Source: an uncultured Spartobacteria bacterium | GTDB lineage: Bacteria > Verrucomicrobiota > Verrucomicrobiia > Chthoniobacterales > UBA6821 | Assembly (NCBI GenBank): GCA_903913785.1 | Contig: CAIWMF010000009.1 | Coordinates: 2,878-66,877, forward strand | DNA length: 64,000 nucleotides | Reading direction: 5' to 3' | Shown here: piece after piece, positions 78 to 38,085 of the stretch | How the letters are laid out: each line of letters starts with the position of its first letter | How positions within the stretch are numbered: the first letter of the stretch is position 1 | Made by a program: the position numbers and the translations under genes | Notes under the pieces: generated by a model | Told to the model about the DNA's origin: nothing | What the model saw: only the letters and a program-made list of their open reading frames with translations | The model's database searches: none

Positions 78-116
78 TGAGCTTGAGACTTGGCTGAAAT
101 AAGGAAAAATCACCTG

Positions 117-1070
117 ATGGATATTTCCTTTTTACAAGATCATAAGATTACTGTTCTCATGGGTGGGCCTGGTGTGGAGCGGGAGGTTTCGCTCTCCTCG
201 GGAGCTGCGGTAACGAAGGCTCTCCTTACAGCCGGTCTTTCGGTTGTTCCCTGTGAGGTGAAGGGTCGTGATTTAATGCTCCCAAGAGGAACTACTTTTG
301 TCATGAATATGATTCATGGGACCTTTGGCGAGGATGGTGAGCTCCAAGGCCTCTTAGAAGAGCAAGGGATTGCCTACAGTGGGGCAGGGGTGGAGGCGAG
401 CCGTCTTGCGATTAATAAAATCGAGTCTAAAAAACGATTTCTAAAAGATGGTATTCCTACAGCCCCTTTTGAAATATTACGCCCAGGGGAGTTTCCTTCG
501 CTTGTCGTTCCTTTTGTGGTCAAGGCGCCCAAGGAGGGTTCGGCTCTTGGTATTTACATCGTCAAAGAAAATGATCCGGCCGTGATTAAGGCCGCGCTTG
601 AGGGGGCCTTTGAGTATGGGAGTGAAATTTTAGTGGAGGAATTTTTTCTAGGAAAGGAACTCACGGTCGGTATTCTTGGCGATCAAGTCCTTCCTATTAT
701 TGAAATTCAAGCCAAGGATGGCATTTATAATTATCAAAATAAATATAGTCCTCATGGAAGTCGGCATCTCATTCCTGCTCCCCTAGATCCTCTCATGACC
801 GAAAAGGTGAAAGAGATTGCACTGGCTGCACATCGCTCGTTGGGCGTTGAGGTTTACTCTCGGGTTGATATCATTTTGGGGCAGGATGGGAGGATTGCTG
901 TTTTGGAAGTCAATACGATTCCTGGAATGACAGAAACAAGCTTACTACCTGATGCGGCACGGGTATTTGGACTCGATTTTACAGCGCTTTGTGTTAGAGT
1001 GATGGAGTTATCTTTAATTACCCGAAAAAAGTATAAAGACTCCACTCATCATGATTGTTCGTCGCTCTAA
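117..1070 (+). CDS. ddl: D-alanine--D-alanine ligase
   Basis: Track ORF 90..1070. ATP-grasp Ddl-like sequence (KITVLMGGPGVEREVSLSSG, LEVNTIPGMTETSLLP). ATG at 117 is preferred over TTG at 90. It heads the order ddl-ftsQ-ftsA-ftsZ. Confidence 0.9.
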   Translation: MDISFLQDHKITVLMGGPGVEREVSLSSGAAVTKALLTAGLSVVPCEVKGRDLMLPRGTTFVMNMIHGTFGEDGELQGLLEEQGIAYSGAGVEASRLAINKIESKKRFLKDGIPTAPFEILRPGEFPSLVVPFVVKAPKEGSALGIYIVKENDPAVIKAALEGAFEYGSEILVEEFFLGKELTVGILGDQVLPIIEIQAKDGIYNYQNKYSPHGSRHLIPAPLDPLMTEKVKEIALAAHRSLGVEVYSRVDIILGQDGRIAVLEVNTIPGMTETSLLPDAARVFGLDFTALCVRVMELSLITRKKYKDSTHHDCSSL

Positions 1071-2004
1071 TTCTTATAATCGTCGGATACGTACCAAGGT
1101 AGGTGTGCAGGGCAGTCATCTTTTGGAGCTTAGAGCACGCCGCGACTCCTTCACAGAGGAGCGTACGCACAAGATTAACGCGCTGCTCATCAAGGTGATT
1201 GTTTTAGGGCTTTTTCTTCTTTTGCTCTTTGTTGGAGGAAGAATTCTTTTAGACAAGTTTTTTTTTACAAATCCCAATTATAATATCGAGCATCTTGAGG
1301 TCTCACTGGACGAGGTTATGACTCTTGAGGAACTCAAAACACTCACAGGCTTGCATGAGGGGACCAATATCTTTCAAGTAGATTTAAGTGCTGCCGAAAA
1401 AATCTTATCAGATGTGCCGGAGGTCAAAAAAGCGCATATTGAGCGCCTCTTACCTAATACCATTCAAGTTTCCTTAGAGCGGCGTGTTCCTGTTTTTCGT
1501 TTAGCCTCCTCTCCTGAGGAAGCATTGATTCCTGGTAAAAGCTTTGTGGTTGATCAAAGTGGCGTCCTTATGATTCCCAAAAAAATAGAACCCTCGCTTA
1601 TAGAGCTGCCTTTACTTCTAGGGATCGATCAAGCTTCACTCATCTTGGGGAAGCCCGTGAAAGATGAAAAATTTTTCTTTGCGATCGGACTCAGAGATCT
1701 TCTTGTTAATGATCAACACCCGGCACCGATCATGATTCGTTCTTTTGATCTCTCTCGTGAGTACTGTGCTAGAGTGACTGATGACGGACAGGCTCAGTTT
1801 GTGTTTAGCGAAGAAAATTTACCAGCACAAGTAGAGCGTTTGCACAAGCTACTCACTCACTGCCAAGAAACCGGACGGCAAATTGAAACAGCCAATCTCA
1901 TTCTAGAGCACAATACTCCGGTGACTTTTCGATTCAATCGTCATGAGGGTTCCCCTAGGAGTATTCAAGGTAGTGCTTCGAACAAAAAAGAGCTCGCTCG
2001 TTAA
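1051..2004 (+). CDS. ftsQ: cell division protein FtsQ (POTRA domain)
   Basis: 317 aa with a basic N-terminus and a single TM helix (LIKVIVLGLFLLLLFVGG), followed by a POTRA-like region. It lies between ddl and ftsA and overlaps the ddl end by 20 nt. Confidence 0.8.
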   Translation: MIVRRSNSYNRRIRTKVGVQGSHLLELRARRDSFTEERTHKINALLIKVIVLGLFLLLLFVGGRILLDKFFFTNPNYNIEHLEVSLDEVMTLEELKTLTGLHEGTNIFQVDLSAAEKILSDVPEVKKAHIERLLPNTIQVSLERRVPVFRLASSPEEALIPGKSFVVDQSGVLMIPKKIEPSLIELPLLLGIDQASLILGKPVKDEKFFFAIGLRDLLVNDQHPAPIMIRSFDLSREYCARVTDDGQAQFVFSEENLPAQVERLHKLLTHCQETGRQIETANLILEHNTPVTFRFNRHEGSPRSIQGSASNKKELAR

Positions 2005-2027: not shown

Positions 2028-3245
2028 ATGCGCCGTGAACAGCTCTTTGTCGGTCTTGAAATTGGAACCACAAAAATTTGTGTGATTGTTGCAGAAGGAT
2101 TGCCAGATGGCTCTATTCATATTTTAGGCGTCGGAGACACTCCTTCACGAGGGATCCGCAAGGGAGAGATCATTGACTTTGCAAGTGTGACGGAATGTGT
2201 GCGCGAAGCCATCATTGATGCTGAGGAGAAAAGCAATGTCGAAATTCGTAGTGTGTGGGTAGCCTTATCAGGCGGGCATTTGCAAAGCTTTAATAATCGT
2301 GGGATATGGATTCTTCCTGATGATCATGATGCGATCACTCAAGAGGATCTTCGTATGGTTGAAATAAATGCCAAAGAGGTCACCCTTCCCTCAGCTAATG
2401 CCTTTCTGCACACAATTATTCAAAACTATCATGTCGATGGAAATCGTAATGTTATTGACCCAGAGGGGATGATTGCATCCCGTTTGGAAGCCGATTTTCA
2501 TATTGTTCATGGGGTGAAAAATCGAATTCAAAACACACTTCGGTGTCTTGAATCTTTAAAATTAGATGTTGAGGATATTGTGATGAATTCTTTAGCCTCC
2601 GCACAAGTAGTGCTCACTCAGCAGCAAAAAGATCTTGGAGCCTTGGTGATTGATATTGGCGGAGGAACAACAGATTTCTTGATTTACATTGATGGAGCAG
2701 TAAGACATAGCGGTGTCCTGGCTTTGGGAGGCGACCATATTACTAATGATATTTCTATTGGCCTAAGGCTTCCAATCGCACGCTCGGAGCTTCTCAAAAT
2801 TGAAGAGGGTTCTGCATTGCTGACTGCATCTATGAACGAGCAAAAAATTCATCTTAAAAATGACACTCTATTTTCAGGATGTGAAATCGATCGCAAGGCG
2901 CTTAACTTAATTATCCATGCTCGTGTGAACGAGCTCATGCAGCTTCTGCGTCGCGAGGTAGAACGCGGTTGTCATTTAGATCTCCTGGGAGCAGGTATTA
3001 TGTTAACAGGAGGCTGTTCTAAATTACGTGGGATCAAAAAACTCACCGAAGAAGTATTTCAACTGCCGGTTTCCGTGCCGCTTTTAAGCAATATCTCAGG
3101 CCCAACATCTACTTTTGAGAATCCTGAGTTTTCTACGGCCATTGGTCTTACTAAATATGCTAACGCTGTTTATACTGCAATCCCTCACGAGAACTTTTTT
3201 TCTAAAATCACAGATGTTCTTGGGGGCTTTTTTGGACGTCGATAA
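2028..3245 (+). CDS. ftsA: cell division protein FtsA
   Basis: 405-aa actin-fold protein (FVGLEIGTTKICV, VIDIGGGTTDF), directly upstream of the ftsZ-like gene. Confidence 0.9.
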   Translation: MRREQLFVGLEIGTTKICVIVAEGLPDGSIHILGVGDTPSRGIRKGEIIDFASVTECVREAIIDAEEKSNVEIRSVWVALSGGHLQSFNNRGIWILPDDHDAITQEDLRMVEINAKEVTLPSANAFLHTIIQNYHVDGNRNVIDPEGMIASRLEADFHIVHGVKNRIQNTLRCLESLKLDVEDIVMNSLASAQVVLTQQQKDLGALVIDIGGGTTDFLIYIDGAVRHSGVLALGGDHITNDISIGLRLPIARSELLKIEEGSALLTASMNEQKIHLKNDTLFSGCEIDRKALNLIIHARVNELMQLLRREVERGCHLDLLGAGIMLTGGCSKLRGIKKLTEEVFQLPVSVPLLSNISGPTSTFENPEFSTAIGLTKYANAVYTAIPHENFFSKITDVLGGFFGRR

Positions 3246-3260
3246 TATAGATTGATCATC

Positions 3261-4715
3261 ATGCCTTCCTCTGCTCTCAACTCAGGTTCTCGATCCATAC
3301 ACTTTTCCTACCGTATTATTGGTCTGGGTAATGCTGGGGTGAATTTTTTAGATCGCTTGTTACTTAAGGATCCTGCGTTCTCTGGACTCATTGCTCTTAA
3401 TAATGATGCTGAGGCACTCGCTGCCTCGGTTGTGACCACAAAGCTCCTTCTGCCCTCGGAGCTCGATGATTCTTCCTCATTGTCTTCTGAAGACTTAGCA
3501 AAAGCTCTTCCTCAACTTGTCAAGGAGATGGAGCAAGCATCAGTGGTAATTCTTGTGGGAGGTCTTGGTGGCGGATGCGCCTCAACACTCCTTCCTCATG
3601 TGGCAAGGATGAGTAAAGCCGCTCACAAAACGACTCTTGCCTGCGTGAGTCTTCCTTTTTCCTTTGAGGGTAAACGAACGCAATTAATAGCCGCTCAGTC
3701 GATGGCAGCATTAGAAAAAGAATGTGATGGATTGATTTTCCTAGATAATGATCGTCTTTGTGCAAAGCGTGCTTCGATTTCTGCCTTAGGGGAAACATTT
3801 ACTGCTTCTGATGAGGCTATGGAAGCGATTTTGCCCGCACTCTTAGCTATTTTATTTAACAAAGGTCCTGTTCGTATTACGCGTGCTGATTTTTTAAAAG
3901 CATTGCAAGAGCGTGGTTCCAAGCACTCGTTTGGTTACGGTGAGGCCATAGGGGGGAATCGATTACATGAAGCACTTGAGCAAGCTTTAAAAAATCCTCT
4001 ACTCGATCGTGGGCGCTGTTTGCCTAAAGCGAGTCATGTTTTTCTACTCTTGCGAGGTCCTAAGGATATTTCTTTTGCAGAAGTGCAAGCTGCCATGCAG
4101 GAAGTAGAGCGCTTGGCAGGACCTGACCGCGATATCCAATTAAGTGTGTATCCCGAGAAGCCTTCTGGAGAGCCTTTGCAAATTTTTCTTTTCGCTATTA
4201 TTGGAGGAACTCCTGCTGCACTAGAGGTAATGCAGCCCTTGCCAGCAGCTGAATCTAAACTACCCAAGGAAGAAATTATTAAGCCGCAACTAGAGCTTAG
4301 TAGTCATGAAACTCTCCCCTCTATAGATCTTTTAGAGCGCCCGCAAGCTTCTCAAGACGAACATGCCGTATTGGAGAGTATTGTAAGTAATTGTGAGACT
4401 CTTGCCAGTAGCCTAAAGACTAGCACCAAGGGAGTGAAGCCATACAGCCAAGAAGAGGAAGGATCAATAGCACCTAAAAAAGAGAGGGAAGATAAGAGGG
4501 AGCTTTTTCAAGAAGATCTTTTTAAGAAATCTGCTGAAATTCCAGATGCTATTGCTACAAAGTCCTTGCTACCTCCAAAACTCAAACAAACTCAAGGAGC
4601 TTTGAATCTCAAAGCCCTGCAACGAGGGCGCTTCGATAAAAGCGAACCAACTATTTTTGAGGGAGAGGATCTTGATACGCCTACCTATTTGAGATTAGGA
4701 TTAAAACTCGGCTAA
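3261..4715 (+). CDS. ftsZ: divergent FtsZ-like tubulin-fold protein
   Basis: Track ORF 3252..4715 (TTG start); first ATG at 3261. FtsZ-like blocks are present: IIGLGNAGVNFL, LNNDAEAL, VGGLGGGCAS, SLPFSFEGKR, FLDNDRL. It has a long disordered linker and a C-terminal DLDTPTYLRLG peptide resembling the FtsA-binding tail. It occupies the canonical position after ftsA. Confidence 0.8.
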   Translation: MPSSALNSGSRSIHFSYRIIGLGNAGVNFLDRLLLKDPAFSGLIALNNDAEALAASVVTTKLLLPSELDDSSSLSSEDLAKALPQLVKEMEQASVVILVGGLGGGCASTLLPHVARMSKAAHKTTLACVSLPFSFEGKRTQLIAAQSMAALEKECDGLIFLDNDRLCAKRASISALGETFTASDEAMEAILPALLAILFNKGPVRITRADFLKALQERGSKHSFGYGEAIGGNRLHEALEQALKNPLLDRGRCLPKASHVFLLLRGPKDISFAEVQAAMQEVERLAGPDRDIQLSVYPEKPSGEPLQIFLFAIIGGTPAALEVMQPLPAAESKLPKEEIIKPQLELSSHETLPSIDLLERPQASQDEHAVLESIVSNCETLASSLKTSTKGVKPYSQEEEGSIAPKKEREDKRELFQEDLFKKSAEIPDAIATKSLLPPKLKQTQGALNLKALQRGRFDKSEPTIFEGEDLDTPTYLRLGLKLG

Positions 4716-4949
4716 CCCGAATATTTCATACTGATTGTTACGAGGAGGCAGCGAAGCCTTATGGATACTGCGCTCAAGCTCGAAGTCGTTGATTCGCTTG
4801 GCGAAGCTTGACTCACCCCTTCGGGGCTGTTGGAGAGCAGTCTGCCCCACGGCCTCGCAGCCAGTGGTGTTCTCCGGGCATTATGTACAGAGATACAGCC
4901 CTGCTTCCAAATATTCGCATGCCTGACTCTATCAGGCTTCGCGGCTGCC
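4713..4949. mobile_element. MITE-like repeat copy A (one intact terminus, right terminus missing)
   Basis: Starts with (C)TAACCCGAATATTTCATACTGATTGTTACGAGG, sharing its TAA with the ftsZ stop codon. Internal blocks match other copies (GCGCTCAAGCTCGAAGTC, ATGTACAGAGATACAGCCC). Inverted arms GGCAGCGAAGCCT (4747-4759) and AGGCTTCGCGGCTGCC (4934-4949) close the element and are followed by a T7 run, so it could also act as the dcw-operon terminator. Confidence 0.75.
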
Positions 4950-4963
4950 TTTTTTTATTAGGA

Positions 4964-6580
4964 CTAAGAAATAGAACAAGCATTTCTACTTGGCAGCTTC
5001 GACTTATCCTTTATCTCCAAATAACCAGCCAACTGCTCCGTAGCAGCCAACTGCTCCGTAGCATACAAATGATTGCGAGCGTATAGAAGATAAGAAGTAT
5101 CTGGAGCTGATGAGGAACAGTTTGCTCGCGTAAATAAATCGAAGACTTTATTAAAGCCCTTAATGATATCTGCTCTAGGCTTCGGTCTTGCCAACTCAAG
5201 CGTGAGACACAAATGAGCGCGACCTTTATAATATAGATTCTCTGCGCTGTCTTCATCGTCCTCTCTTTCTGCTTTTTGAAAAAACTCGAAGGCTTCATTA
5301 AAGCCCTTAATGATATCTGCTCTAGGCGTCGGTCTTGCCAACTCAAGCGTGGCATCCAAACGAGCACGACCTTGATTTCTTATATAGTAAGTTTGATAAC
5401 CTTCATTAACATGAATTTTTGCTTTTTGAAAAAGATTAAATGCTTGGTTGAAGCCCTCAATGATATCTGCTCTAGGTTGTAGTTGTGCTGACTCCTCCGT
5501 GCTCGACAAAGCAGCAGAAGCTTCGTTCTGTAAATAATAAGCTCGATCATAATGGCCGTTAGCTCGTTCTTCCTCGGCTTTTTCAAGAAGAGTAAAAATT
5601 TCATCCAGAGTGATTACCAGTTTGAAACAAAAAATAAGCTCGGCGTTTTCGGGCACGTTCTTTAATAAAAGACACCCAGATTGTAAGGCTTTTTTGTAGT
5701 TTTCTAAATATTCGGTCCTATTTGCTAAGTGAGCGAAAGATCCTTCTGAGTCTAATTGTAAGCTTCCAAGACCAGCTGTTCTAAGATCAGCTATTTTAAG
5801 ATCAATTATTTTTTTATCTAAGGTGATGATGTTGTCTTGGAGGGCGACAGAAATATTATTTAATATCTTACCGTCTAGATTGACATGTTTTCTTAAAGAG
5901 CGTGAGGTTAAAGGAAACTCTATTTTTCCTTTTGCTACTTGCTCTAACATCACTCTTCCATCGAGCACCTCTTTGATAAGTTTTGGCTCCAGTTCCTCTG
6001 TAAAGTCAAATGAAAGCAACCTGTTTTGCTCAATTTTTTCTAATGCTTCTTCAAATTTATCTTGCACAGAGATAGCTCTTACGTCCCTAAATAGGGAGTT
6101 ATTGACGATATCTGTGACTTGGTCTGCATCCAGTCCTTGAGTATCCAAAAGTCTCTCTAGTGGGCCTCTTTGTTCCTCTGTTTCTGAGAGATCAGGTGGT
6201 GCAGAAGGTTCAATATCTCCACTGATTTTAAGAGATTCAGACTTATTTATTATCTCTGGAACTGGAGGATAAGAACTTATCGTATTAACCTCCTCTGAGG
6301 ACATACTAGTTGATGGAAACTTTAAATTTTCTAAAGATGCTAAATTTTTAGATTTTTCTTTAGCAGGATCTTGAGCAAGACGAGAAGGTCGATTCGAAAA
6401 CGTACTCGTCGACATCTGTTTGCTAACCTTGTGTGTTGGAACCGTAGGCATCTCAACAACTGTAGTCGATCCGGGGAATTTCCCTTTCACTCGCACTGAT
6501 CGAGCTTGGGCAGATGAAGGAGCCTGAGGGTTTGCTGTTGGTACTTGAGAGCTAGTTTGTGGTTTTGATTTTAATAGCAT
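4964..6580 (-). CDS. hypothetical protein with C-terminal 49-50 aa tandem repeats
   Basis: 538-aa ORF. The N-terminal third is S/T/P-rich and I saw no signal peptide. Three repeats of the form PRADII[EK]GFN.AF..F.KA....LELARP. I recognise no family. Confidence 0.6.
   Translation of the reverse strand: MLLKSKPQTSSQVPTANPQAPSSAQARSVRVKGKFPGSTTVVEMPTVPTHKVSKQMSTSTFSNRPSRLAQDPAKEKSKNLASLENLKFPSTSMSSEEVNTISSYPPVPEIINKSESLKISGDIEPSAPPDLSETEEQRGPLERLLDTQGLDADQVTDIVNNSLFRDVRAISVQDKFEEALEKIEQNRLLSFDFTEELEPKLIKEVLDGRVMLEQVAKGKIEFPLTSRSLRKHVNLDGKILNNISVALQDNIITLDKKIIDLKIADLRTAGLGSLQLDSEGSFAHLANRTEYLENYKKALQSGCLLLKNVPENAELIFCFKLVITLDEIFTLLEKAEEERANGHYDRAYYLQNEASAALSSTEESAQLQPRADIIEGFNQAFNLFQKAKIHVNEGYQTYYIRNQGRARLDATLELARPTPRADIIKGFNEAFEFFQKAEREDDEDSAENLYYKGRAHLCLTLELARPKPRADIIKGFNKVFDLFTRANCSSSAPDTSYLLYARNHLYATEQLAATEQLAGYLEIKDKSKLPSRNACSIS
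5026..5061 (-). repeat. perfect 18-bp tandem duplication inside a CDS
   Basis: CAGCCAACTGCTCCGTAG occurs twice (5026-5043 and 5044-5061), encoding ATEQLA ATEQLA near the C-terminus of the 538-aa protein. Confidence 0.9.
5100..5545 (-). repeat. intragenic tandem repeat, period 147-150 bp, 3 copies
   Basis: The motif TT[AG]AAGCCCT[TC]AATGATATCTGCTCTAGG starts at 5151, 5298 and 5448. Copies 1 and 2 continue with near-identical C[TG]TCGGTCTTGCCAACTCAAGCGTG. Confidence 0.85.
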
Positions 6581-6837
6581 GGTTTTCTTGGATTTTGGAT
6601 GACACGAAATACCAACTATATTAATAAAAATTTAGAGAAAACAACTCAATTTGATGGGTGCAGCCATAACCTGAATCTATCGATGATGATTTTTTGAGTA
6701 CGCAGCAAATCTTGAAAAACTGGCTCATTAGTGAGTAGTGGAACTCATCGATATCCTCTTTTTTCAGGGTGTCATTATTGATGAGTTAATTCGTAGCTCT
6801 GGTAGAGGATCATGATTGATTTCATAACAGAGTCCAT

Positions 6838-6879
6838 GTGGAATATTCGGGTTAAAGGTAAACCGCATATTTCATTGTG
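6838..6879. repeat. two abutted MITE-family termini (right end, 3-nt spacer, left end)
   Basis: GTGGAATATTCGGGTTAA AGG TAAACCGCATATTTCATTGTG. The two ends face each other, 61-85 nt upstream of the clpB ATG. Confidence 0.65.
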
Positions 6880-6939
6880 TTTTCCTCTCACTACGGGCAT
6901 GTCAATAGAACATAATAACCAAAAACTAATTTCTACTTT

Positions 6940-9667: not shown

Positions 9668-10564
9668 ATGCAACCAAAGAAGCTTGTTCAATTTGATTGG
9701 GCCATCAAGATACTCCTGCGCCGCAAGGCGAATTTTGGGATTCTTGAGGGATTTCTTTCTGAGCTGCTCAAGACGGATGTGAAAATAACATCATTGCTTG
9801 AAAGCGAATCCAATAAGGAGCACTCGAAGGACAAGTCAAATCGTGTCGATGTGTTGGCGCAACTCAGTCATGGTGAGCGCGTCATTATTGAAGTCCAATG
9901 CGAACGCGAGTGGGATTTTATTTCACGAATGCTCTATGGCGTTTCTAAAGTTGTGGTTGAGCATCTTCAGGAGGGTGATGCCTATGGAATGATTCCACGG
10001 ATCATATCGGTTAATATCGTCTACTTCGACTTGGGCCAAGGAGAAGATTACATCTATCATGGAACGACTCAATTTGAAGGTATTCACAAAAAAGATATTC
10101 TTCAGTTAAAAGAATCAGAGCAAAAAAATTATCCCAGCCGTATTGATCGCATAGGTCAAATCTTGCCAGAATATTACGTTCTTAAAGTCAGTGGCTTTGA
10201 CTTAAAAATAAAAGACACCCTCGATGAGTGGGTGTATACGCTGAAAGAATCGGAAGTCAAACCGGAGTTTAAAGCCAAGGGGATCCACGAAGCAGCCAAT
10301 ACACTCGCAGTGCTGAATCTTTCTGATGAGGAACGCTTCGCCTATGACCGACATATTGGCGATATGAGAATTTCTAAAAGCACAGCACAAACCTATTTTG
10401 GTGATGGTTTGAATGAAGGGATAGCCCAAGGGATGGCCCAAGGGATGGCCCAAGGAAAAGCTGAAATCGTCAACAATATGCATCAACTCGGTTTGTCAAT
10501 CACTGACATTGCAAAGTTTGTCAAACTTTCCGAAGCCTATGTCCAAAAGATTTTACAATCATGA
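9668..10564 (+). CDS. Rpn/YhgA-like PD-(D/E)XK nuclease family protein (putative transposase-like)
   Basis: 298 aa. The N-terminal pattern (FDWAIKILL, RVDVLAQLSHGERVIIEVQ) is typical of the Rpn-type 'putative transposase or invertase' family. The stop overlaps the mrp start (ATGA). Confidence 0.65.
   Translation: MQPKKLVQFDWAIKILLRRKANFGILEGFLSELLKTDVKITSLLESESNKEHSKDKSNRVDVLAQLSHGERVIIEVQCEREWDFISRMLYGVSKVVVEHLQEGDAYGMIPRIISVNIVYFDLGQGEDYIYHGTTQFEGIHKKDILQLKESEQKNYPSRIDRIGQILPEYYVLKVSGFDLKIKDTLDEWVYTLKESEVKPEFKAKGIHEAANTLAVLNLSDEERFAYDRHIGDMRISKSTAQTYFGDGLNEGIAQGMAQGMAQGKAEIVNNMHQLGLSITDIAKFVKLSEAYVQKILQS
10418..10453 (+). repeat. 12-bp tandem repeat x3 inside a CDS
   Basis: GGGATAGCCCAA GGGATGGCCCAA GGGATGGCCCAA, encoding GIAQGMAQGMAQ. 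Confidence 0.9.
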
Positions 10565-15467: not shown

Positions 15468-17600
15468 TTAATATACCAAAAAACGCATGGCATTAAGGTC
15501 TTCGGTAGCTCTTTTAAGCGATTTCTGAGCACGTTCAATGGCTTCTTTCTGATTTTTAATGCTGTTAATATTAGAACCTCCAACGATATAGGGTGAAGTA
15601 ATGAGCGTGTAATAGTCTTCCATAGAGCCCTTTCTTTCAAAAGAAAATTGAGAAAGATTATGCTTTGTCTTTATTTTCTCTTGGCCTGGACGCATATAGA
15701 GCAAGAGTGGTCCTGTTTGAGCATCAGGCTGTGCTAATTGAGTCACTTTCTTAAATTCAGAGGCAGCATGATCATATGATTGAGCTATTTTTTGATAAAG
15801 ATTTGCTCTTTCATAAAAATTATTTTCATGTGAGTGTACATATTCCTCGGCACTATTCCTGTAGTTGTTATACGCATGTAAGCAGCACATTTTTTCATCA
15901 GCTCTTTTGTTGCTCATCGCATTTTTGAGATCACTTTGGCTCTTAAGGGCTCTTTCTAATAAAAAATTTATTATCGCAGAATGATCGTGAGAGGTGACCT
16001 TTTGATGTGTGATCGCCATGTTTGATGAGCTTTTAAAAGTGCCATAGTTCTTTTTACTTTCATCAGGGAGTAAACATTCCAATTCTTCCTGAGTCGGTTC
16101 TACTTCCTTAGGTTCTGGCTCATGGAGAGCCTTCTTGGGTATGATGGGTCCATTGATATAATGAATGGAGGTATTCTCTGTTTTATTAATTTCAGTAAGA
16201 GTCGCATTTAATAAGGAGACTAGTGCTGTTGCTGGTCTTGAGTTGCGCTTGTTTGGAGGGTTCCCACAGACTGAGATCTTTGGGAAGGAGGAAAGTTCTT
16301 TAGTGATCAGTTCAGATCCTTCATCATCTGAATGTTTTAAACCTAGGAATAGAGGAGATTGTTTTTCTGATTTGACGGGCGAGGTCACCTGCGTGATAGG
16401 AAGAATATTTGATTTTGTATTTAGAAGAGGAGTTTTTTCGCTGTCTTGGATCCCAGAGTTAGCAAGATGAGTATTATTGTTGTTACGCTGAATAGAAGTA
16501 TTCATAAAATTGAAAAAATCTGTTTCTGACAATTCCTCGTTGTTACTTGCTCGTCTTATTTTTCCCAAGTCTAAATTATTTTGAGAAGACGTTCTCTCAT
16601 CTATGTATTGAGGTAGAGATCGAAATTCGTGCTCATAGGATGGCCGTGTATGGAGATTGGATTCTGCACAAAGACATGTGTCACATATTCTATTATGTAC
16701 TGGTTGTCGTTCTCTGTGCTGAAGGGGTCGTCGAACGCCTGAATAGACACTTATGCCAGATATAATGAGTCCCAAGGCATCTCTTATGAAGGGCTCTGCT
16801 ACGCCACCCATTGTTGGTATCATCATCATGGTCACATTTTTTTGATTCTCTTCTTGCCTCTCTAGCACAAAGAAGGAGTGATTACTTTTTAGATCGGGGT
16901 CGACGTTATGAAGACATGCTTCTTCATGATGATTTAACCCGGATATTTCATGCTGATCGTGACGAGAAGGCTGCCAAGTCTGATGGGGCAAGGCGAGTGA
17001 TGAAGCCTGACAACGGCTGTATGAGTACATATTGACTCGCTCGCACCTGCTCGGCTCGCCCTTACGGGCTGCCCCTAACCTAACACGGTTACGGCAGTCT
17101 ACCCCAGGCTCTCCCGCGCACTGGTGTTGCCCGAGGAAGACTTCGAGCTTGGGCGCAGCATCACTCTCTTGGGTTACCTCATCAAGTATTTCTTGCATGA
17201 CTTCCTCACTTATCTTAGAAGGGATATCCTTGCCTTCCTTCTCTTGAAGAATGAGGGCATAGCATTCTGCATCGAGTAAACTGAGAAATGTGATGAGAGC
17301 ATCTTGTGTCGTCTTGAAACTCTCTATCTCATCATTAAAGATAGGAGCTTCATAGACGTAGGACCCAGGAATACCCATGCGAAGGATTCCTCCTTTGGCT
17401 TGAGGAATATCTGCCATCTTTTCATTGTAGAGATGATGTAGGTCGCTTGTGGCTGCACCATTTAACAACTCGGTATATTTGCTAATGGATATTCTACTAT
17501 TGCGAGACTCTTGAGCAGCCAGCTTTGATAGGTGTGCAAAAAAAAGAAATGTTATTAGAGGTACGAAAAGAAAGATGAATGCAATGGGGGAATGGCGCAT
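15468..17600 (-). CDS. hypothetical secreted protein carrying an in-frame repeat-element insertion
   Basis: 710-aa ORF with an N-terminal signal-like segment (IAFIFLFVPLITFLFFAHLSKLAAQE). I recognise no family. Roughly aa 146-223 are encoded by MITE copy C. Confidence 0.55.
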   Translation of the reverse strand: MRHSPIAFIFLFVPLITFLFFAHLSKLAAQESRNSRISISKYTELLNGAATSDLHHLYNEKMADIPQAKGGILRMGIPGSYVYEAPIFNDEIESFKTTQDALITFLSLLDAECYALILQEKEGKDIPSKISEEVMQEILDEVTQESDAAPKLEVFLGQHQCAGEPGVDCRNRVRLGAARKGEPSRCERVNMYSYSRCQASSLALPHQTWQPSRHDQHEISGLNHHEEACLHNVDPDLKSNHSFFVLERQEENQKNVTMMMIPTMGGVAEPFIRDALGLIISGISVYSGVRRPLQHRERQPVHNRICDTCLCAESNLHTRPSYEHEFRSLPQYIDERTSSQNNLDLGKIRRASNNEELSETDFFNFMNTSIQRNNNNTHLANSGIQDSEKTPLLNTKSNILPITQVTSPVKSEKQSPLFLGLKHSDDEGSELITKELSSFPKISVCGNPPNKRNSRPATALVSLLNATLTEINKTENTSIHYINGPIIPKKALHEPEPKEVEPTQEELECLLPDESKKNYGTFKSSSNMAITHQKVTSHDHSAIINFLLERALKSQSDLKNAMSNKRADEKMCCLHAYNNYRNSAEEYVHSHENNFYERANLYQKIAQSYDHAASEFKKVTQLAQPDAQTGPLLLYMRPGQEKIKTKHNLSQFSFERKGSMEDYYTLITSPYIVGGSNINSIKNQKEAIERAQKSLKRATEDLNAMRFLVY
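16934..17164. mobile_element. MITE-like repeat copy C, located inside a CDS
   Basis: Starts TTAACCCGGATATTTCATGCTGATCGTGACGAGAAGGCTGCCAAG. It ends in CCCGAGGAAGACTTCGAGCTTGGGCGCAGCATC, which is the reverse complement of the GATGCTGCGCTCAAGCTCGAAGTCTTCCTCGGG block of copy D. The second terminus is missing. Confidence 0.75.
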
Positions 17601-17691: not shown

Positions 17692-18738
17692 TCAGCGAGG
17701 CAATGGAGGTTTAAAAAGATAGTGGGAGACGAGCCACTCTCTTCCATGATTGGTGCCCCAGAGTTCCTCACAAGACATGAAAAAGACTCTCCAGTAGACC
17801 CACCAACGTTTTTGTTCTTCTTTCCCGTAGGTCTTTTCCATGAGCGGCATAATCTTACTTTTTGCCTGATCCATGTTGCGGAGCCAGGCTCGCGCTGTCT
17901 TTTGATAATGGATGCCACTTACCTGCCAATGGTCTTGGATCTTAAGATTCTCTTGAAAATAGAGTAAGAGATCATCCGAGGGCATCTGACCACCAGTAAA
18001 AAAATAACGAGCCATCCAATCCTCCTCCTCGCCTACTTCAAAGTGATAAGCAACTTCTCGATGTGTAAAAATATGAACAAAAAAAGCACCATCTGCCTTG
18101 AGCCAGCTGGCAATACGTTTGAAGAGCGACTGATAATTTTTCATATGTTCCAACATTTCTACAGAAACAATACGATCAAAGGTTGCTTCGCCTTCTCCCT
18201 CGTAGTCGGTCATGTTGACCGTGCGAACAGTAACATTGGTGAGTTTTCGCTTCGCAAGCTCGGAATCGATATAGGCTTTTTGCGTTTGAGAGTTAGAAAT
18301 AGCAATGATCGAGGCATTCGGGTAATGCGAGGCCATCCAGAGGGTAAGGGAACCCCAGCCACATCCTAGCTCTAGAATGGACTGGCCATCTTGAAGCTCT
18401 GCGCGCTTGCAAGTAAGTGCTAGCATGCACTCTTCGGCTTCATGGAGACTAGTCACGCCATCATCCCAATATCCGGAGCTATATTTTTTATGCTTTCCTA
18501 AAACGGACTCAAAAAATGCGGTAGGAAGTTCATAGTGCTGCTCATTAGCCTCGGCTGTTGCAACGGCAATGGGACTTGTTTTAAGGCTAGCAATATGCTC
18601 CATGAGTAGGGCTTGAGACGCTTCTGGATTTAATTTGTTAAAACGAGCCAAATGGGCAGCTAGGCGCCTGCGAATCCCAAAGCGAATCAAGAAATCAGGA
18701 AGGAGATTTTTCGCAAGAAGAGTATTCAGAGTGCTCAT
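17692..18738 (-). CDS. cyclopropane-fatty-acyl-phospholipid synthase-like SAM-dependent methyltransferase
   Basis: 348 aa. SAM-binding motif ILELGCGWGSL and CMAS-family architecture. It is the last gene of the 5-gene cluster. Confidence 0.8.
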   Translation of the reverse strand: MSTLNTLLAKNLLPDFLIRFGIRRRLAAHLARFNKLNPEASQALLMEHIASLKTSPIAVATAEANEQHYELPTAFFESVLGKHKKYSSGYWDDGVTSLHEAEECMLALTCKRAELQDGQSILELGCGWGSLTLWMASHYPNASIIAISNSQTQKAYIDSELAKRKLTNVTVRTVNMTDYEGEGEATFDRIVSVEMLEHMKNYQSLFKRIASWLKADGAFFVHIFTHREVAYHFEVGEEEDWMARYFFTGGQMPSDDLLLYFQENLKIQDHWQVSGIHYQKTARAWLRNMDQAKSKIMPLMEKTYGKEEQKRWWVYWRVFFMSCEELWGTNHGREWLVSHYLFKPPLPR

Positions 18739-19523
18739 GATTTTTTAGGGAACCAAGGAATGATAACAGAGGTTGTTTGTTGATAATGGCGATATGCTGC
18801 CCCTTTGCTTTGCAGTGAAGAGGCTTCTGCCGGGGGGATGCCGGTGATTTTAAGAAGTAAAACAATCATTGTAGCAGGAGCGTAAAGGGTTATCCACCCA
18901 CCAGGAGTGGTAGAGGCAATCAAGTAAAAACTGATCCAAATGACTATTTCAAAAAAATAGTTAGGATGGCGTGAATACTTCCAAAGCCCCAGCTGACAAA
19001 CACCCGATGGGTCATGATTTTTTTGTTTGTAGGAGGCTAGCTGTGCATCAGCTAACGCCTCTCCTAAAATGCCAATACCAAGCAAAAGAGTTCCCGAGAT
19101 TTGTAAAAAATTCCAACGAGTATTCTCATCCATGCCAATCAATAAAAAAGGAAGGGTCAAAAGAACCACAGAAAGAGCCTGTGCCTGGAAAAAAAGAAAA
19201 GATAAGAGACCTTCATGATCTTTCCACGCCTCACGGAGTGCTTGGTAACGTCGGTCTTCATGAGGGTGCTCTTTAGCAATGCGGTATCCTAAGTGCCAAG
19301 AGAGTCGTATGCTCCAGCAGCCAAAGAGGAGGGCCGCGATGCACTTTTTTTGGTTCCAGGCTCCTGCGAGTAGTAAAAAATTGAGTCCTGTGATTGCAAG
19401 CCCTGCTGCCCAAAAAGCATCGACAAGAGAGTAGTTATGACAAGCGCGAGCCCATACCCAGGCCAGAGTAAAGACGATGATAAGTGTCGTGGTAGCGGAA
19501 AATAAGAGTATGTAGGGATGCAT
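18735..19523 (-). CDS. DUF1295 (steroid 5-alpha-reductase-like) membrane protein
   Basis: 262 aa, polytopic. Contains the C-terminal KYSRHPNYFFEIVIW motif characteristic of DUF1295. Overlaps the downstream gene by 4 nt. Confidence 0.75.
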   Translation of the reverse strand: MHPYILLFSATTTLIIVFTLAWVWARACHNYSLVDAFWAAGLAITGLNFLLLAGAWNQKKCIAALLFGCWSIRLSWHLGYRIAKEHPHEDRRYQALREAWKDHEGLLSFLFFQAQALSVVLLTLPFLLIGMDENTRWNFLQISGTLLLGIGILGEALADAQLASYKQKNHDPSGVCQLGLWKYSRHPNYFFEIVIWISFYLIASTTPGGWITLYAPATMIVLLLKITGIPPAEASSLQSKGAAYRHYQQTTSVIIPWFPKKS

Positions 19524-19555
19524 GTGTGACGTAAAATTTTAATAAATGAGTTTAC

Positions 19556-20836: not shown

Positions 20837-21635
20837 GAATCTTTGTTTTTGTTGGATAAGGTCGGAGGATATCAGATTGTGCTTCTTGACGATCTGTTTT
20901 TTGAAAAAAAGGAATTCCTTTTTTCCATAAGAGAAAGGCATGCCAATGAATCCGTCCAATAATCTGCAGGGATAAAAATGGATATTTGAAAAAATAAGAG
21001 AGCATGCGTGAAGAGGAAAGTGAATGCTCTTCGCCACGAATAGAGCTTAGAAGGAGGCGTTCTCCGCCTTCGTAGTCATCGATATTCACGCGCCATGTTT
21101 TTTTGGGAACGCCTATTTTAAAATCAAATTCTACTCCTGGATCAGAAAAGGGAGAGACATAGAAATTCTTAGCAACCCGCCGGTGCCATAATTGATGGGC
21201 ATCAGAGGTATCAATGAGAAAGAGTTTCATTTCACGAAAGGTATTCACAACCTCTGCCACCACAGCAAGGGTTTCACCTTCTAGAGAAAAAAGAAAATAA
21301 AAGGAAACAGGGTTAAATCCATAGCCGAGCACACGCGGAAATGTCATCAAAGAAATGGAAATATCGGGCGGAAATTTTTTTCCTTGGCCGTCAAGCCATG
21401 CTAAAAGATTGGGAGCAATGCCACCTGGAAGCCCAAGATTGATATGATCGGCATCATCTATAGAAAAAAGATTCCAGGCATTATGACTGAGCCCCCAGGT
21501 TTTTTTTGCAGTGATTGGTAGGGATTGGAGATCCACATAGAGCATGAAAAGCGAGTAGGCAAACTGATGTCGCTTCGGTTTTAAGCGGCAATGGGTGACG
21601 TGGCAGGAATAGAGTTTATTCATGAATGCATCCAC
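20829..21635 (-). CDS. DUF1365 family protein
   Basis: 268 aa. The N-terminus LYSCHVTHCRLKPKRHQFAYSLFMLYVDL is typical of DUF1365. It lies between the FAD oxidoreductase and cfa. Confidence 0.8.
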   Translation of the reverse strand: MDAFMNKLYSCHVTHCRLKPKRHQFAYSLFMLYVDLQSLPITAKKTWGLSHNAWNLFSIDDADHINLGLPGGIAPNLLAWLDGQGKKFPPDISISLMTFPRVLGYGFNPVSFYFLFSLEGETLAVVAEVVNTFREMKLFLIDTSDAHQLWHRRVAKNFYVSPFSDPGVEFDFKIGVPKKTWRVNIDDYEGGERLLLSSIRGEEHSLSSSRMLSYFFKYPFLSLQIIGRIHWHAFLLWKKGIPFFQKTDRQEAQSDILRPYPTKTKIHD

Positions 21636-38060: not shown

Positions 38061-38085
38061 AGCGACTTTGCAAACAGGTTCTAAG

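What the first reader, a model, noticed from the sequence alone, without database searches (positions are those of the whole stretch)
3261..4715. FtsZ homologue in the canonical dcw position with degenerate GTP-binding motifs
The fold-level blocks are unmistakably FtsZ: LNNDAEAL, SLPFSFEGKR, FLDNDRL, and a C-terminal DLDTPTYLRLG peptide like the conserved FtsA/ZipA-binding tail. The nucleotide-contact motifs, compared with E. coli FtsZ as I remember it, are altered:
- The T1 motif GVGGGGGN reads GLGNAGVN.
- The T3 region GLGAGANPEVG is replaced by an acidic/Ser-rich stretch (PSELDDSSSLSSED).
- The tubulin signature GGGTGTG reads GGGCAST.
- The T7 motif NVDFAD reads RITRAD.

This suggests weakened or altered GTP binding and hydrolysis, or a non-canonical polymerisation mechanism, in a lineage related to groups that have lost FtsZ altogether.
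Basis: partly seen in the sequence, partly recalled or inferred. Interest (0 to 1): 0.65.

Follow-up and report, generated by a model that had tools for sequence, protein, structure and literature searches.

The report
FtsZ lacking its GTP-sensing loop
The cell-division gene ftsZ of this uncultured verrucomicrobial bacterium, and of its whole clade, has lost the loop that senses GTP and most residues that hydrolyse it, yet it is kept under purifying selection, so these bacteria probably use FtsZ without the usual GTP-driven dynamics.

Summary
Window 3261-4715 (+) encodes a 484-aa FtsZ directly after ddl-ftsQ-ftsA.

I add four points:
- T1 (GNAGVN) is a tubulin-like variant, not a wreck.
- Two further key residues are changed: E. 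coli Q47 to E and R142 to T.
- The guanine and ribose contacts (F180, D184, N163, E136, PFxFEG) are invariant.
- The trait is not private to this genome. About 140 distinct sequences form one monophyletic Chthoniobacterales ("Spartobacteria") clade that lacks the T3 loop and carries T4 GGETGSF and T7 GPV(K/R)ITRxD.

Related verrucomicrobial FtsZs show a stepwise gradient towards this state. The gene co-evolves with ftsA. dN/dS is about 0.07-0.16 in the globular core, and the FtsA-binding tail is conserved.

Best reading: an orthologous, functional FtsZ that probably still binds a guanine nucleotide. It has lost gamma-phosphate sensing and canonical hydrolysis, and its subunit interface is charge-swapped.

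Two things are untested: the biochemistry, and whether a second ftsZ lies elsewhere in the genome.

The papers I could search call verrucomicrobial FtsZ "divergent" but do not describe this state. I rate it a new variant of a known kind.

The parts
3261..4715 (+). ftsZ orthologue, 484 aa plus stop codon
   Evidence: ORF and translation. Pfam Tubulin and FtsZ_C both pass their cut-offs. PDB FtsZ hits at 1.7e-28. AlphaFold and Foldseek give the FtsZ fold.
3309..3860 (+). N-terminal nucleotide-binding (tubulin/FtsZ GTPase) domain, residues 17-200
   Evidence: The model shows the S1-H7 secondary structure at pLDDT above 90. It aligns with FtsZ structures. dN/dS is 0.15 against L081.
3321..3344 (+). 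T1 loop GLGNAGVN (res 21-28), tubulin-like variant; E. coli G20 becomes N24
   Evidence: Alignments. G21, G23, N24, A25 and G26 are at least 91% conserved in the clade. Alpha-tubulin has GQAGVQ.
3399..3413 (+). T2/H2 NNDAE (res 47-51): N43 and D45 equivalents kept, Q47 becomes E51
   Evidence: Position 47 is E or D in 29 of 30 T3-less loci and Q in most T3-containing relatives.
3453..3494 (+). Acidic, Ser-rich segment PSELDDSSSLSSED (res 65-78) in place of the T3 loop (GxGxGxxPE motif absent)
   Evidence: Alignments. The region from S3 to S4 is about 11-12 residues shorter than canonical across the clade. pLDDT is lower here, 82-85.
3561..3587 (+). T4 / tubulin-signature position GLGGGCAST (res 101-109); first half conserved, second half variable
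   Evidence: G101, L102, G103, G104 and S108 are conserved. Positions 105-107 and 109 have 1.4-2.2 bits of entropy.
3654..3683 (+). T5/H5 PFSFEGKRTQ (res 132-141): ribose-contact Glu kept, R142 equivalent becomes T140
   Evidence: P132, F133, F135, E136 and G137 are invariant. Position 142 is K or R in clade D and A, T or V in the query's narrow clade.
3747..3812 (+). T6 (N163) to H7 (F180, D184): guanine-contact residues
   Evidence: N163 and F180 are invariant and D184 is 99% conserved among 140 T3-less sequences.
3864..3890 (+). T7 loop GPVRITRAD (res 202-210): N207 becomes R205, D209 becomes T207, F210 becomes R208, D212 kept as D210
   Evidence: G-P-V-x-I-T-R is strongly conserved in the clade. 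The net charge of T7 is inverted from -2 to between +1 and +1.6.
3891..4205 (+). C-terminal globular (FtsZ_C) domain, residues 211-315
   Evidence: Pfam FtsZ_C 28.7 bits. Model pLDDT above 90. dN/dS 0.15.
4206..4583 (+). Disordered linker, residues 316-441
   Evidence: pLDDT below 50. Length and sequence vary among relatives. dN/dS is about 1.3 against L081.
4584..4712 (+). Conserved C-terminal block KQTQGxLxL..QRGRFDKSEPTIxEGEDLDTPTYLRLGLKLG, including the FtsA-binding-type peptide
   Evidence: Columns 443-482 are invariant or nearly so. The pattern GRFDKSEP recovers relatives in 363 GTDB species genomes. pLDDT is about 75.
2028..3245 (+). ftsA, the presumed membrane tether, directly upstream
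   Evidence: Pfam FtsA and SHS2_FTSA. ftsA sits immediately upstream in every locus where an ftsA was found, 79 of 82 loci besides the window. The FtsA and FtsZ trees are congruent.
1051..2004 (+). ftsQ
   Evidence: Pfam POTRA_1, FtsQ-type.
90..1070 (+). ddl (D-Ala-D-Ala ligase), start of the visible part of the dcw cluster
   Evidence: Pfam Dala_Dala_lig_N and Dala_Dala_lig_C.

Best explanation
This is the vertically inherited FtsZ orthologue of an uncultured Chthoniobacterales (Verrucomicrobiota) bacterium. It belongs to a monophyletic clade whose FtsZ has been remodelled, not degraded.

**Shown by computation here.**
- It keeps the two-domain FtsZ fold.
- It keeps the dcw position next to ftsA and a conserved FtsA-binding-type C-terminal peptide.
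- It keeps invariant guanine and ribose contact residues.
- It lacks the T3 loop, which in canonical FtsZ binds and senses the gamma-phosphate.
- The second half of the phosphate-binding T4 signature is unconstrained.
- The equivalents of E. coli Q47, R142, N207 and D209 are replaced.

**Inferred.**
- The protein still binds a guanine nucleotide, more as a structural cofactor, like the non-exchangeable site of alpha-tubulin.
- It has little or no canonical GTPase activity and cannot tell GTP from GDP through T3.
- It still assembles head-to-tail, but through a rebuilt interface. A now basic T7 loop (K/R at 207, R at 210) meets a now acidic upper face (E/D at 47 and an acidic segment in place of T3). 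This replaces the water-, Mg2+- and K+-mediated contacts around the gamma-phosphate.
- It acts as an FtsA-tethered scaffold for the divisome. Its turnover is not driven by GTP-hydrolysis-coupled treadmilling in the usual way.
For: **Identity and fold.**

**Synteny.** ddl-ftsQ-ftsA-ftsZ in the window. ftsA lies directly upstream in every locus where an ftsA was found (79 of 82 loci besides the window). A clade member shows murG, a murC-murB fusion, ddl, ftsQ, ftsA and ftsZ.

**Orthology.**
- FtsA and FtsZ neighbour-joining trees both recover the T3-less group (29 tips) and the query's subgroup (11 tips) as monophyletic.
- The two distance matrices correlate with Pearson r = 0.89.

**Clade-wide, stepwise change.**
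- All 120 best database relatives share the altered motifs.
- 80 GTDB loci show a gradient from canonical, to T7 altered, to T1 GNAG, to T3 deleted with T4 GGETGSF and T7 KITR, to further drift in the query's subgroup.
- Among the 150 best of 1.84 billion representatives, only 4 full-length members of this clade and 6 fragments lack T3.

**Selection.**
- dN/dS of the globular core is 0.15 against the closest relative.
- Across other pairs the median is about 0.07 in the wide clade and about 0.11 in the narrow clade, against about 0.05 in T3-containing relatives (medians read by eye from the table).

**Pocket.** Pocket-lining positions are the most conserved in the protein: median entropy 0.23 against 1.51 bits, Mann-Whitney p = 1.6e-7. 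F180, D184, N163, E136, P132 and G137 are invariant.

**Loss of catalytic network.**
- PMC8936486 shows that S. aureus D46A, R143Q, N208L, D210N and D213N abolish assembly.
- The same paper shows that Q48A and R143K cut GTPase about 6-fold and stabilise polymers, and that G72 of T3 holds the catalytic water.
- The query has E, T, R and T at the Q48, R143, N208 and D210 equivalents, and has no T3.

**Charge swap.** The T3 segment goes from +2 to -2.5, T7 goes from -2 to between +1 and +1.6, and Q47 becomes E/D.

**C-terminal peptide.** It is conserved. FtsZ, including its C-terminal extension, is essential in V. spinosum (PMC12283558).
Against: - No biochemical data exist. Nucleotide binding, hydrolysis and assembly are all inferred from sequence.
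- The altered T7 (GPV[KR]ITR) is itself very conserved, and D212 is invariant in the wider clade. This could equally mean a different but working active site.
- Most verrucomicrobial FtsZs already carry a non-canonical T7 (RIGxDD). The V. spinosum gene is essential, so deviation from NxDxxD does not by itself prove inactivity.
- At short evolutionary distances FtsZ evolves 2-4 times faster than FtsA in T3-containing verrucomicrobial clades too. The acceleration is therefore not specific to the T3-less clade.
- The charge-swap interface idea rests on alignment to S. aureus contacts.
- A second ftsZ elsewhere in the genome could not be excluded.
Confidence: 0.55

Rival explanations
1. Fully competent but rewired GTPase. 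The protein binds and hydrolyses GTP and treadmills like other FtsZs. It uses substitute residues: the T1 Asn acts like tubulin Gln11, the retained D210 is the catalytic base, and K/R205 or R208 act as a tethered cation or arginine finger.
For: - The altered T1 and T7 motifs are among the most conserved positions in the clade.
- The D212 equivalent is invariant in the wider T3-less clade, and position 142 is K or R there.
- T1 resembles alpha-tubulin GQAGVQ.
- Verrucomicrobial FtsZs with the non-canonical T7 RIGxDD include an essential one.
Against: - The whole T3 loop, which positions the gamma-phosphate and the catalytic water, is missing.
- The second half of T4 is hypervariable in the query's subgroup (GGGCAST, GGSFASR, GGVFGSE and others).
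- In that subgroup the D212 equivalent is H or N in 7 of 11 loci, and the R142 equivalent is A, T or V.
- Single substitutions at four of these positions inactivate S. aureus FtsZ.
Confidence: 0.2
2. Nucleotide-free pseudo-GTPase. The pocket no longer holds a nucleotide. The acidic replacement of T3 and the Glu in T4 (GGETGSF in the wide clade) occupy or mimic the phosphate site, and the protein polymerises constitutively or under the control of partners.
For: - The T3 loop is lost, an acidic residue sits inside the phosphate loop, and the second half of T4 is variable.
- The T3 segment and T7 show a charge inversion.
Against: The residues that contact only the guanine base and the ribose (F180, D184, N163, E136) are invariant across about 140 sequences. 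That is hard to explain without a bound nucleoside.
Confidence: 0.12
3. Specialised extra copy. A canonical ftsZ elsewhere in the genome performs division, and this dcw-linked gene has taken on a regulatory or accessory role.
For: - The rest of the genome could not be searched.
- Some CPR bacteria carry a second, divergent FtsZ that groups with verrucomicrobial FtsZ in trees (PMC9871819).
Against: - It occupies the ancestral ftsA-ftsZ position in every locus and co-diverges with ftsA.
- No second tubulin-family ORF lies in the 64-kb window or within about 10 kb of the gene in 83 loci.
- Each of the 80 GTDB genomes contributed one locus only.
- It keeps the FtsA-binding-type tail.
Confidence: 0.08
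4. Decaying relic on the way to loss, as happened in Planctomycetes and Chlamydiae, with no remaining function.
For: - The lineage is PVC.
- TIGR00065 scores only 100 against a cut-off of 295.
- The FtsZ branch is accelerated: root-to-tip 1.81 against 1.13.
Against: - The reading frame is intact wherever the gene is not cut by a contig end, in all clade loci and about 140 distinct sequences.
- dN/dS of the core is 0.05-0.16.
- Conservation is strongly position-specific.
- The C-terminal peptide and the synteny are conserved.
Confidence: 0.05

Closest known systems
Canonical bacterial FtsZ (E. coli, B. subtilis, S. aureus; TIGR00065, PF00091 + PF12327)
   Same: - Two-domain fold (Foldseek TM about 0.8).
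- ddl-ftsQ-ftsA-ftsZ position.
- Disordered linker followed by a C-terminal LD(I/T)PxFLR-type peptide.
- T5 PFxFEG, T6 N, and H7 F and D nucleoside contacts.
   Different: - No T3 loop.
- T4 is GGGCAST instead of GGGTGTG.
- T7 is RITRAD instead of NxDxxD.
- Q47 becomes E and R142 becomes T.
- It scores 100 bits against the 295-bit equivalog cut-off.
- The T3 and T7 faces are charge-inverted.
Other verrucomicrobial FtsZs (V. spinosum, Prosthecobacter, Chthoniobacter-like, Terrimicrobiaceae)
   Same: - The same orthologous lineage.
- Serine in the tubulin signature.
- A long conserved C-terminal block (QRGRFDKSEP...DLDVPTFLR).
- A T7 that is already non-canonical.
- Accelerated evolution, noted in PMC2474590 and PMC9871819.
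   Different: They keep RGLGAGGDPE (T3), GGGTGSG (T4), Q47 and R142. The query's clade has lost all four.
Non-hydrolysing nucleotide site of the alpha/beta-tubulin dimer (N-site; beta-tubulin Lys in place of the catalytic alpha-tubulin Glu254; from my own knowledge)
   Same: A tubulin-family interface where the nucleotide is structural. The incoming T7 carries a basic instead of an acidic residue. The T1 sequence is similar (GNAGVN against GQAGVQ).
   Different: Tubulin keeps T3 and GGGTGSG and binds GTP tightly. It is a heterodimer with a second, hydrolysing site. Here a homopolymer would have only the altered site.
Laboratory FtsZ interface and catalytic mutants (S. aureus Q48A, R143K, N208L, D210N, D213N; PMC8936486)
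   Same: The same positions are altered. Q48A and R143K give stable, slowly hydrolysing polymers.
   Different: Those are single changes in an otherwise canonical protein, and most abolish assembly. Here many changes co-occur, are fixed by evolution, and are presumably mutually compensating.

Membership tests
FtsZ (tubulin/FtsZ superfamily, bacterial cell-division orthologue) | Tubulin/FtsZ GTPase-domain fold plus FtsZ C-terminal domain | tested here: met
   PF00091 scores 55.1 bits (cut-off 33), but only profile positions 90-186 are matched. PF12327 scores 28.7 bits (cut-off 27). The AlphaFold model has pLDDT above 90 for residues 17-315, and all 50 best Foldseek PDB matches listed are FtsZ.
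FtsZ (tubulin/FtsZ superfamily, bacterial cell-division orthologue) | Passes the curated equivalog model TIGR00065 | tested here: not met
   100 bits against a cut-off of 295.2. NCBI accordingly names clade members 'hypothetical protein'.
FtsZ (tubulin/FtsZ superfamily, bacterial cell-division orthologue) | Tubulin signature motif [SAG]GGTG[SAT]G (T4) | tested here: not met
   The query has GGGCAST and the wider clade GGETGSF. The PROSITE pattern is as quoted in PMC1845146.
FtsZ (tubulin/FtsZ superfamily, bacterial cell-division orthologue) | T3 loop (GxGxGxxPE) contacting the gamma-phosphate | tested here: not met
   Absent in three independent alignments. The segment is about 11-12 residues shorter across the clade.
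FtsZ (tubulin/FtsZ superfamily, bacterial cell-division orthologue) | T7 synergy loop NxDxxD | tested here: not met
   The query has RITRAD, so only the last Asp is kept. In the query's subgroup even that position is often H or N.
FtsZ (tubulin/FtsZ superfamily, bacterial cell-division orthologue) | T1 glycine-rich loop | tested here: inconclusive
   GLGNAGVN keeps three of the glycines. It resembles GGAGNN of a solved FtsZ (9v7v) and GQAGVQ of alpha-tubulin.
FtsZ (tubulin/FtsZ superfamily, bacterial cell-division orthologue) | Guanine and ribose contacts (T5 PFxFEG, T6 Asn, H7 Phe and Asp) | tested here: met
   P132, F133, F135, E136, G137, N163, F180 and D184 are present and invariant or nearly so in 140 clade sequences.
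FtsZ (tubulin/FtsZ superfamily, bacterial cell-division orthologue) | Conserved C-terminal peptide for FtsA binding, after a disordered linker | tested here: met
   EDLDTPTYLRLGLKLG compares with E. coli DYLDIPAFLRKQAD (E. coli sequence from memory). It is conserved in all relatives. The linker has pLDDT below 50. Actual binding was not tested.
FtsZ (tubulin/FtsZ superfamily, bacterial cell-division orthologue) | dcw-cluster position after ftsQ-ftsA, and vertical co-inheritance with ftsA | tested here: met
   The trees are congruent and the distance matrices correlate with r = 0.89.
FtsZ (tubulin/FtsZ superfamily, bacterial cell-division orthologue) | GTP binding, GTP hydrolysis and GTP-dependent polymerisation | not testable with these tools
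   This needs recombinant protein. Only sequence-based inference is available.
FtsZ (tubulin/FtsZ superfamily, bacterial cell-division orthologue) | Sole FtsZ of the genome, located at the division site | not testable with these tools
   Only the 64-kb window and the flanks, up to 10 kb each side, of 83 loci could be scanned. No second copy was found there.

The most novel reading that the evidence does not exclude
A whole clade of free-living bacteria divides with a single FtsZ that has become a hydrolysis-independent cytoskeletal scaffold. An acidic loop stands in for the gamma-phosphate-sensing T3 loop and pairs with a basic T7 loop of the next subunit, so filament formation no longer reads the nucleotide state. 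This would be the first natural FtsZ-based division without GTPase-driven treadmilling. It would also be a living intermediate on the path by which other PVC phyla lost FtsZ.
Probability: 0.25. Interest if true: 0.85.

Novelty: new variant of a known kind. Interest (0 to 1): 0.62.

Why it matters
**Why it would surprise the field.** GTP hydrolysis at the T7/T3 interface, and the treadmilling it drives, are treated as the core of how FtsZ works. T3, T4 and T7 are regarded as near-universal in the tubulin superfamily.

A natural, selected, dcw-encoded FtsZ without T3 gives a ready-made test of which parts of the GTPase cycle are dispensable for division. It carries substitutions at positions where single mutations inactivate model FtsZs.

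**Evolutionary value.** The stepwise series inside one order runs from canonical, to T7 altered, to T1 altered, to T3 lost, to a drifting T4. It can be used for ancestral reconstruction, and it bears on how Planctomycetes and Chlamydiae came to dispense with FtsZ.

**Practical point.** The NCBI equivalog model fails on these proteins, and they are deposited as 'hypothetical protein'. Presence/absence surveys may therefore wrongly score these widespread freshwater and soil bacteria as lacking FtsZ.

Tried and rejected
- **Misalignment by eye.** Rejected. HMMER against PDB sequences, MAFFT auto, MAFFT L-INS-i and the secondary structure of the model all agree.
- **Pseudogene or sequencing error.** Rejected. 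The identical protein occurs on several independent assemblies. The frame is intact wherever the gene is not cut by a contig end, and dN/dS is well below 1.
- **Private oddity of one genome.** Rejected. The trait is clade-wide.
- **Relaxed selection specific to the T3-less clade.** Only weakly supported. Long-range FtsZ/FtsA distance ratios rise from 1.0 to 2.2 along the gradient and the FtsZ branch is longer. However, short-range dN(ftsZ)/dN(ftsA) is 2-4 in T3-containing clades too.
- **Second ftsZ.** None in the window or near the gene in 83 loci.
- **Pilhofer et al. 2008 (J Bacteriol).** This paper characterised ftsZ of Chthoniobacter flavus. It is not held in the library, so I could not check what it says about motif residues.
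- **Literature searches.** Searches for FtsZ with Chthoniobacterales, Spartobacteria or T3/T7 degeneracy found no description of this state.
- **Pocket geometry.** Model coordinates are not exposed to scripts, so pocket geometry and interface contacts could not be measured.
- **Fused-dimer AlphaFold run.** Considered and dropped, because neither coordinates nor PAE would be returned.
- **Rfam.** The scan of the window found nothing.
- **Provenance caveat.** The HMMER alignment to PDB 2VAM independently supports the same residue correspondences.
Full report
**1. What is at the coordinates**

Window 3261-4715 (+) is an intact 484-codon ORF. It follows ddl (90-1070), ftsQ (1051-2004, POTRA_1) and ftsA (2028-3245; FtsA, SHS2_FTSA).

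Evidence that it is an FtsZ:
- It passes Pfam Tubulin (55.1 bits, cut-off 33) and FtsZ_C (28.7 bits, cut-off 27). The Tubulin profile aligns only from position 90 onward, so it skips T1-T3.
- The NCBI equivalog TIGR00065 gives 100 bits against a cut-off of 295.2.
- phmmer against all PDB sequences returns 49 FtsZ sequences at E 1.7e-28 to 2.9e-19, plus two weaker chains also deposited as FtsZ.
- An AlphaFold2 model built on 48 relatives has pLDDT above 90 for residues 17-315, a disordered linker, and a C-terminal element at pLDDT about 75.
- All 50 best Foldseek matches listed in the PDB are FtsZ (E 9e-27, target TM about 0.8).

The identical protein is on record on several contigs from independent samples.

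**2. The motif changes are real**

The HMMER alignment to B. subtilis FtsZ and two MAFFT alignments agree.

| Element (E. coli numbering) | Canonical | Query |
|---|---|---|
| T1 | G19-G-G-G-G-N24 | G23-N-A-G-V-N28 |
| T2/H2 | N43-T-D45-A-Q47 | N47-N-D49-A-E51 |
| T3 | GLGAGANPE | absent; PSELDDSSSLSSED (res 65-78) |
| T4 | G105-G-G-T-G-T-G111 | G103-G-G-C-A-S-T109 |
| H5 | R142 | T140 |
| T7 | N207-V-D209-F-A-D212 | R205-I-T207-R-A-D210 |

Unchanged elements:
- T5 PFSFEG, including E136.
- T6 N163.
- H7 F180 and D184.

- T1 is less odd than a comparison with E. coli suggests. A solved FtsZ has GGAGNN (9v7v) and alpha-tubulin has GQAGVQ.
- The Q47 and R142 equivalents are also replaced.

PMC8936486 explains why these positions matter in S. 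aureus FtsZ.
- D210 swings to position the catalytic water, which is also held by D213 and by G72 of T3.
- R143 acts like an arginine finger.
- N208 binds a K+ ion and hydrogen-bonds D46 and Q48 of the neighbouring subunit.
- D46A, R143Q, N208L, D210N and D213N abolish assembly.
- Q48A and R143K lower GTPase about 6-fold and stabilise polymers.

**3. It is a clade character, reached stepwise**

The 5.8-billion-protein search gave 1651 hits. All 120 best hits (93-34% identity; Chthoniobacterales or Verrucomicrobia MAGs where named) share the altered motifs and the tail.

A scan of 185,579 GTDB species genomes, using two peptide patterns from the family alignment, found relatives in 363 genomes. 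Eighty were kept, and all those that carry a phylum name but one (L020, labelled Proteobacteria) are Verrucomicrobiota.

Their motifs form a gradient.

| Group | Loci | T1 | T3 | T4 | T7 | Other |
|---|---|---|---|---|---|---|
| a | a few (e.g. L073, L075, L078) | GGAG | present | GGGTGTG | NLDFAD | canonical |
| b | Chthoniobacter-like | GGAG | present | GGGTGSG | HLGFDD | |
| c | Terrimicrobiaceae | GNAG | present | GGGTASG | PMPIGLAD | |
| d | 19 mostly freshwater 'Spartobacteria' loci | GNAGV | missing | GGETGSF | GPVKITRxD | T2 NNDxE/D; S3-S4 region 26 residues instead of 38; position 142 = K |
| e | the query's subgroup, 11 loci | GNAGV | missing | drifts (GGGCAST, GGVFGSE, GGETAST...) | D212 equivalent is H or N in 7 of 11 | position 142 = A, T or V |

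In a HMMER search of 1.84 billion cluster representatives, 8836 proteins matched. Among the best 150, only 4 full-length sequences and 6 fragments lack T3. All others keep RGLGxGGDPE. Most verrucomicrobial FtsZs carry RIGxDD rather than NxDxxD in T7.

**4. Orthology**

- ftsA lies immediately upstream in every locus where an ftsA was found, 79 of 82 loci besides the window.
- A subgroup member shows murG, a murC-murB fusion, ddl, ftsQ, ftsA and ftsZ.
- Neighbour-joining trees of FtsA and of the FtsZ core both recover the T3-less group (29 tips) and the query's subgroup (11 tips) as monophyletic.
- The two distance matrices correlate with Pearson r = 0.89.
- No second tubulin-family ORF occurs in the 64-kb window or within about 10 kb of the gene in 83 loci.
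- The rest of the genome could not be examined.

**5. Selection**

Against the closest relative (L081, 93% identical), dN/dS values are as follows.

| Region or gene | dN/dS |
|---|---|
| FtsZ GTPase domain | 0.15 |
| FtsZ C-terminal domain | 0.15 |
| FtsZ linker | 1.3 |
| FtsZ tail | 0.40 |
| ftsA | 0.08 |
| clpB | 0.06 |
| serA | 0.05 |
| glk | 0.016 |

Over 128 closer pairs, approximate medians are as follows. I read them by eye from the table.

| Group | ftsZ core omega | ftsA omega |
|---|---|---|
| d (wide T3-less clade) | about 0.07 | 0.02-0.03 |
| e (query's subgroup) | about 0.11 | 0.02-0.03 |
| T3-containing Terrimicrobiaceae | about 0.05 | 0.02-0.03 |

Many of these dS values exceed 1, so the estimates are rough.

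Evidence for faster FtsZ evolution:
- The FtsZ branch leading to the clade is long: root-to-tip 1.81 against 1.13. For FtsA it is 0.92 against 0.76.
- The FtsZ-core to FtsA distance ratio rises from 1.0 (group b) to 1.2 (c), 1.4 (d) and 2.2 (e).
- At short range, however, FtsZ evolves 2-4 times faster than FtsA in T3-containing clades as well.

The picture is an episode of remodelling followed by firm purifying selection. It is not ongoing decay.

**6. What is conserved within the clade**

In 140 distinct T3-less sequences, positions lining the nucleotide pocket are the most conserved of the whole core. Median entropy is 0.23 against 1.51 bits (Mann-Whitney p = 1.6e-7).

- Invariant or nearly so: G21, G23, N24, G26 (T1); N47, D49 (T2); G101-G104 and S108 (T4); P132, F133, F135, E136, G137 (T5); N163; F180; D184; and G202, P203, V204, I206, R208 (T7).
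- Variable: positions 105-107 and 109 of T4, the R142 equivalent, N28, and the final Asp of T7 (76%).

So the parts that hold the base and sugar are kept. The parts that hold or act on the beta- and gamma-phosphates are lost or free to vary.

**7. A coupled charge inversion**

From canonical proteins to the T3-less clade:

| Element | Canonical | T3-less clade |
|---|---|---|
| Net charge of the T3 segment | +2 | about -2.5 |
| Net charge of T7 (205-212) | -2 | +1 to +1.6 |
| Position 47 | Q | E or D |

In S. aureus filaments these elements face each other across the longitudinal interface around the gamma-phosphate, Mg2+ and K+.

I infer that direct salt bridges may have replaced ion- and water-mediated contacts. 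A Lys or Arg at position 207 may stand in for the K+ ion. This is inference from alignment and was not modelled.

**8. Most likely mechanism**

- *Shown:* an orthologous, selected FtsZ with an intact fold, an FtsA-type tail and an intact nucleoside pocket. It has no T3 loop and has replacements at four catalytic-network positions.
- *Inferred:* it binds a guanine nucleotide mainly as a structural ligand, hydrolyses it poorly or not at all, and cannot read GTP against GDP through T3. It assembles through a charge-swapped interface and serves as an FtsA-anchored scaffold for the divisome.
- *Confidence:* about 0.55 for the whole statement. I hold above 0.9 for the identity, orthology and clade-wide claims.

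Rivals:

| Rival | Confidence |
|---|---|
| A rewired but competent GTPase | 0.2 |
| A nucleotide-free pseudo-GTPase | 0.12 |
| An accessory copy beside a canonical ftsZ elsewhere | 0.08 |
| A functionless relic | 0.05 |

**9. Relation to what is known**

- Verrucomicrobial ftsZ has been called fast-evolving (PMC2474590) and the most divergent bacterial FtsZ group (PMC9871819).
- V. spinosum FtsZ was described as canonical, with GGGTGSG (PMC1845146). It is essential, including its C-terminal extension (PMC12283558).
- None of the papers I could search mentions loss of T3 or of the catalytic residues in Chthoniobacterales.
- Pilhofer et al. 2008, which sequenced ftsZ of Chthoniobacter flavus, is not held. 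The Chthoniobacter-like loci here still have T3.

By the membership test it is an FtsZ by fold, domain models, synteny, tail and co-phylogeny. It fails the equivalog cut-off, the tubulin signature, T3 and T7.

I file it as a new variant of a known kind.

**10. Verdict**

The finding is real and extends well beyond this genome. It is a conserved state rather than decay, and it is not described in the accessible literature. Its functional meaning awaits biochemistry and a whole-genome check for a second copy. Interest: 0.62.

Noticed in passing
window 4716-6939 (ORF 4964-6580, minus strand): A segment of about 1.9 kb between ftsZ and clpB holds a 538-aa ORF with internal repeats: a 147-nt unit x2.3 at 5132-5476, with the peptide motif ...PRADIIKGFN.AF.FFQKA.... 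It has no Pfam hit. The segment is absent from the 93%-identical relative L081, where ftsZ and clpB are 267 nt apart. It is present in L084, which encodes the identical FtsZ.
   Followed up: partly
window 3261-4715 and relatives P0003, P0010, P0013, P0020, P0030: NCBI records name these FtsZs 'hypothetical protein', because TIGR00065 scores 100 against a cut-off of 295. Annotation-based surveys could score these genomes as lacking FtsZ.
   Followed up: partly
window 4584-4712; all of L001-L080: A roughly 45-residue C-terminal block (QGxLxLxxxQRGRFDKSEPTIxEGEDLDxPT[FY]LR) is conserved across Verrucomicrobiota. It is much longer than the usual FtsZ C-terminal peptide. The pattern GRFDKSEP, together with one other pattern, recovered 363 GTDB species genomes.
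   Followed up: partly
P0129-P0267, L049-L080: Most verrucomicrobial FtsZs that still have T3 and GGGTGSG carry T7 as (R/H)IGxDD instead of NxDxxD. Departure from the canonical catalytic loop is therefore phylum-wide and older than the loss of T3.
   Followed up: partly
L083 3249-5591: A murC-murB fusion gene (Mur ligase domains plus FAD_binding_4 and MurB_C) lies in the dcw cluster of a clade member. A murC-murB fusion is also reported for V. spinosum.
   Followed up: no
window 9668-10564 (+): A gene for a PD-(D/E)XK nuclease-family transposase-like protein (PF12784) lies just downstream of clpB. It is also present in L081.
   Followed up: no
window 17692-22945 (minus strand): A cluster of two cyclopropane-fatty-acid-synthase-like methyltransferases (CMAS), a DUF1295 / steroid-reductase-like membrane protein and a flavin amine oxidase. 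This looks like a lipid-modification operon.
   Followed up: no
window 15468-17600 (-) and 38068-41673 (+): Two large ORFs (710 aa and 1201 aa) have no Pfam match at E <= 0.001.
   Followed up: no
window 1-64000: No Rfam family reaches its gathering score anywhere in the 64 kb. No separate tRNA scan was run.
   Followed up: no
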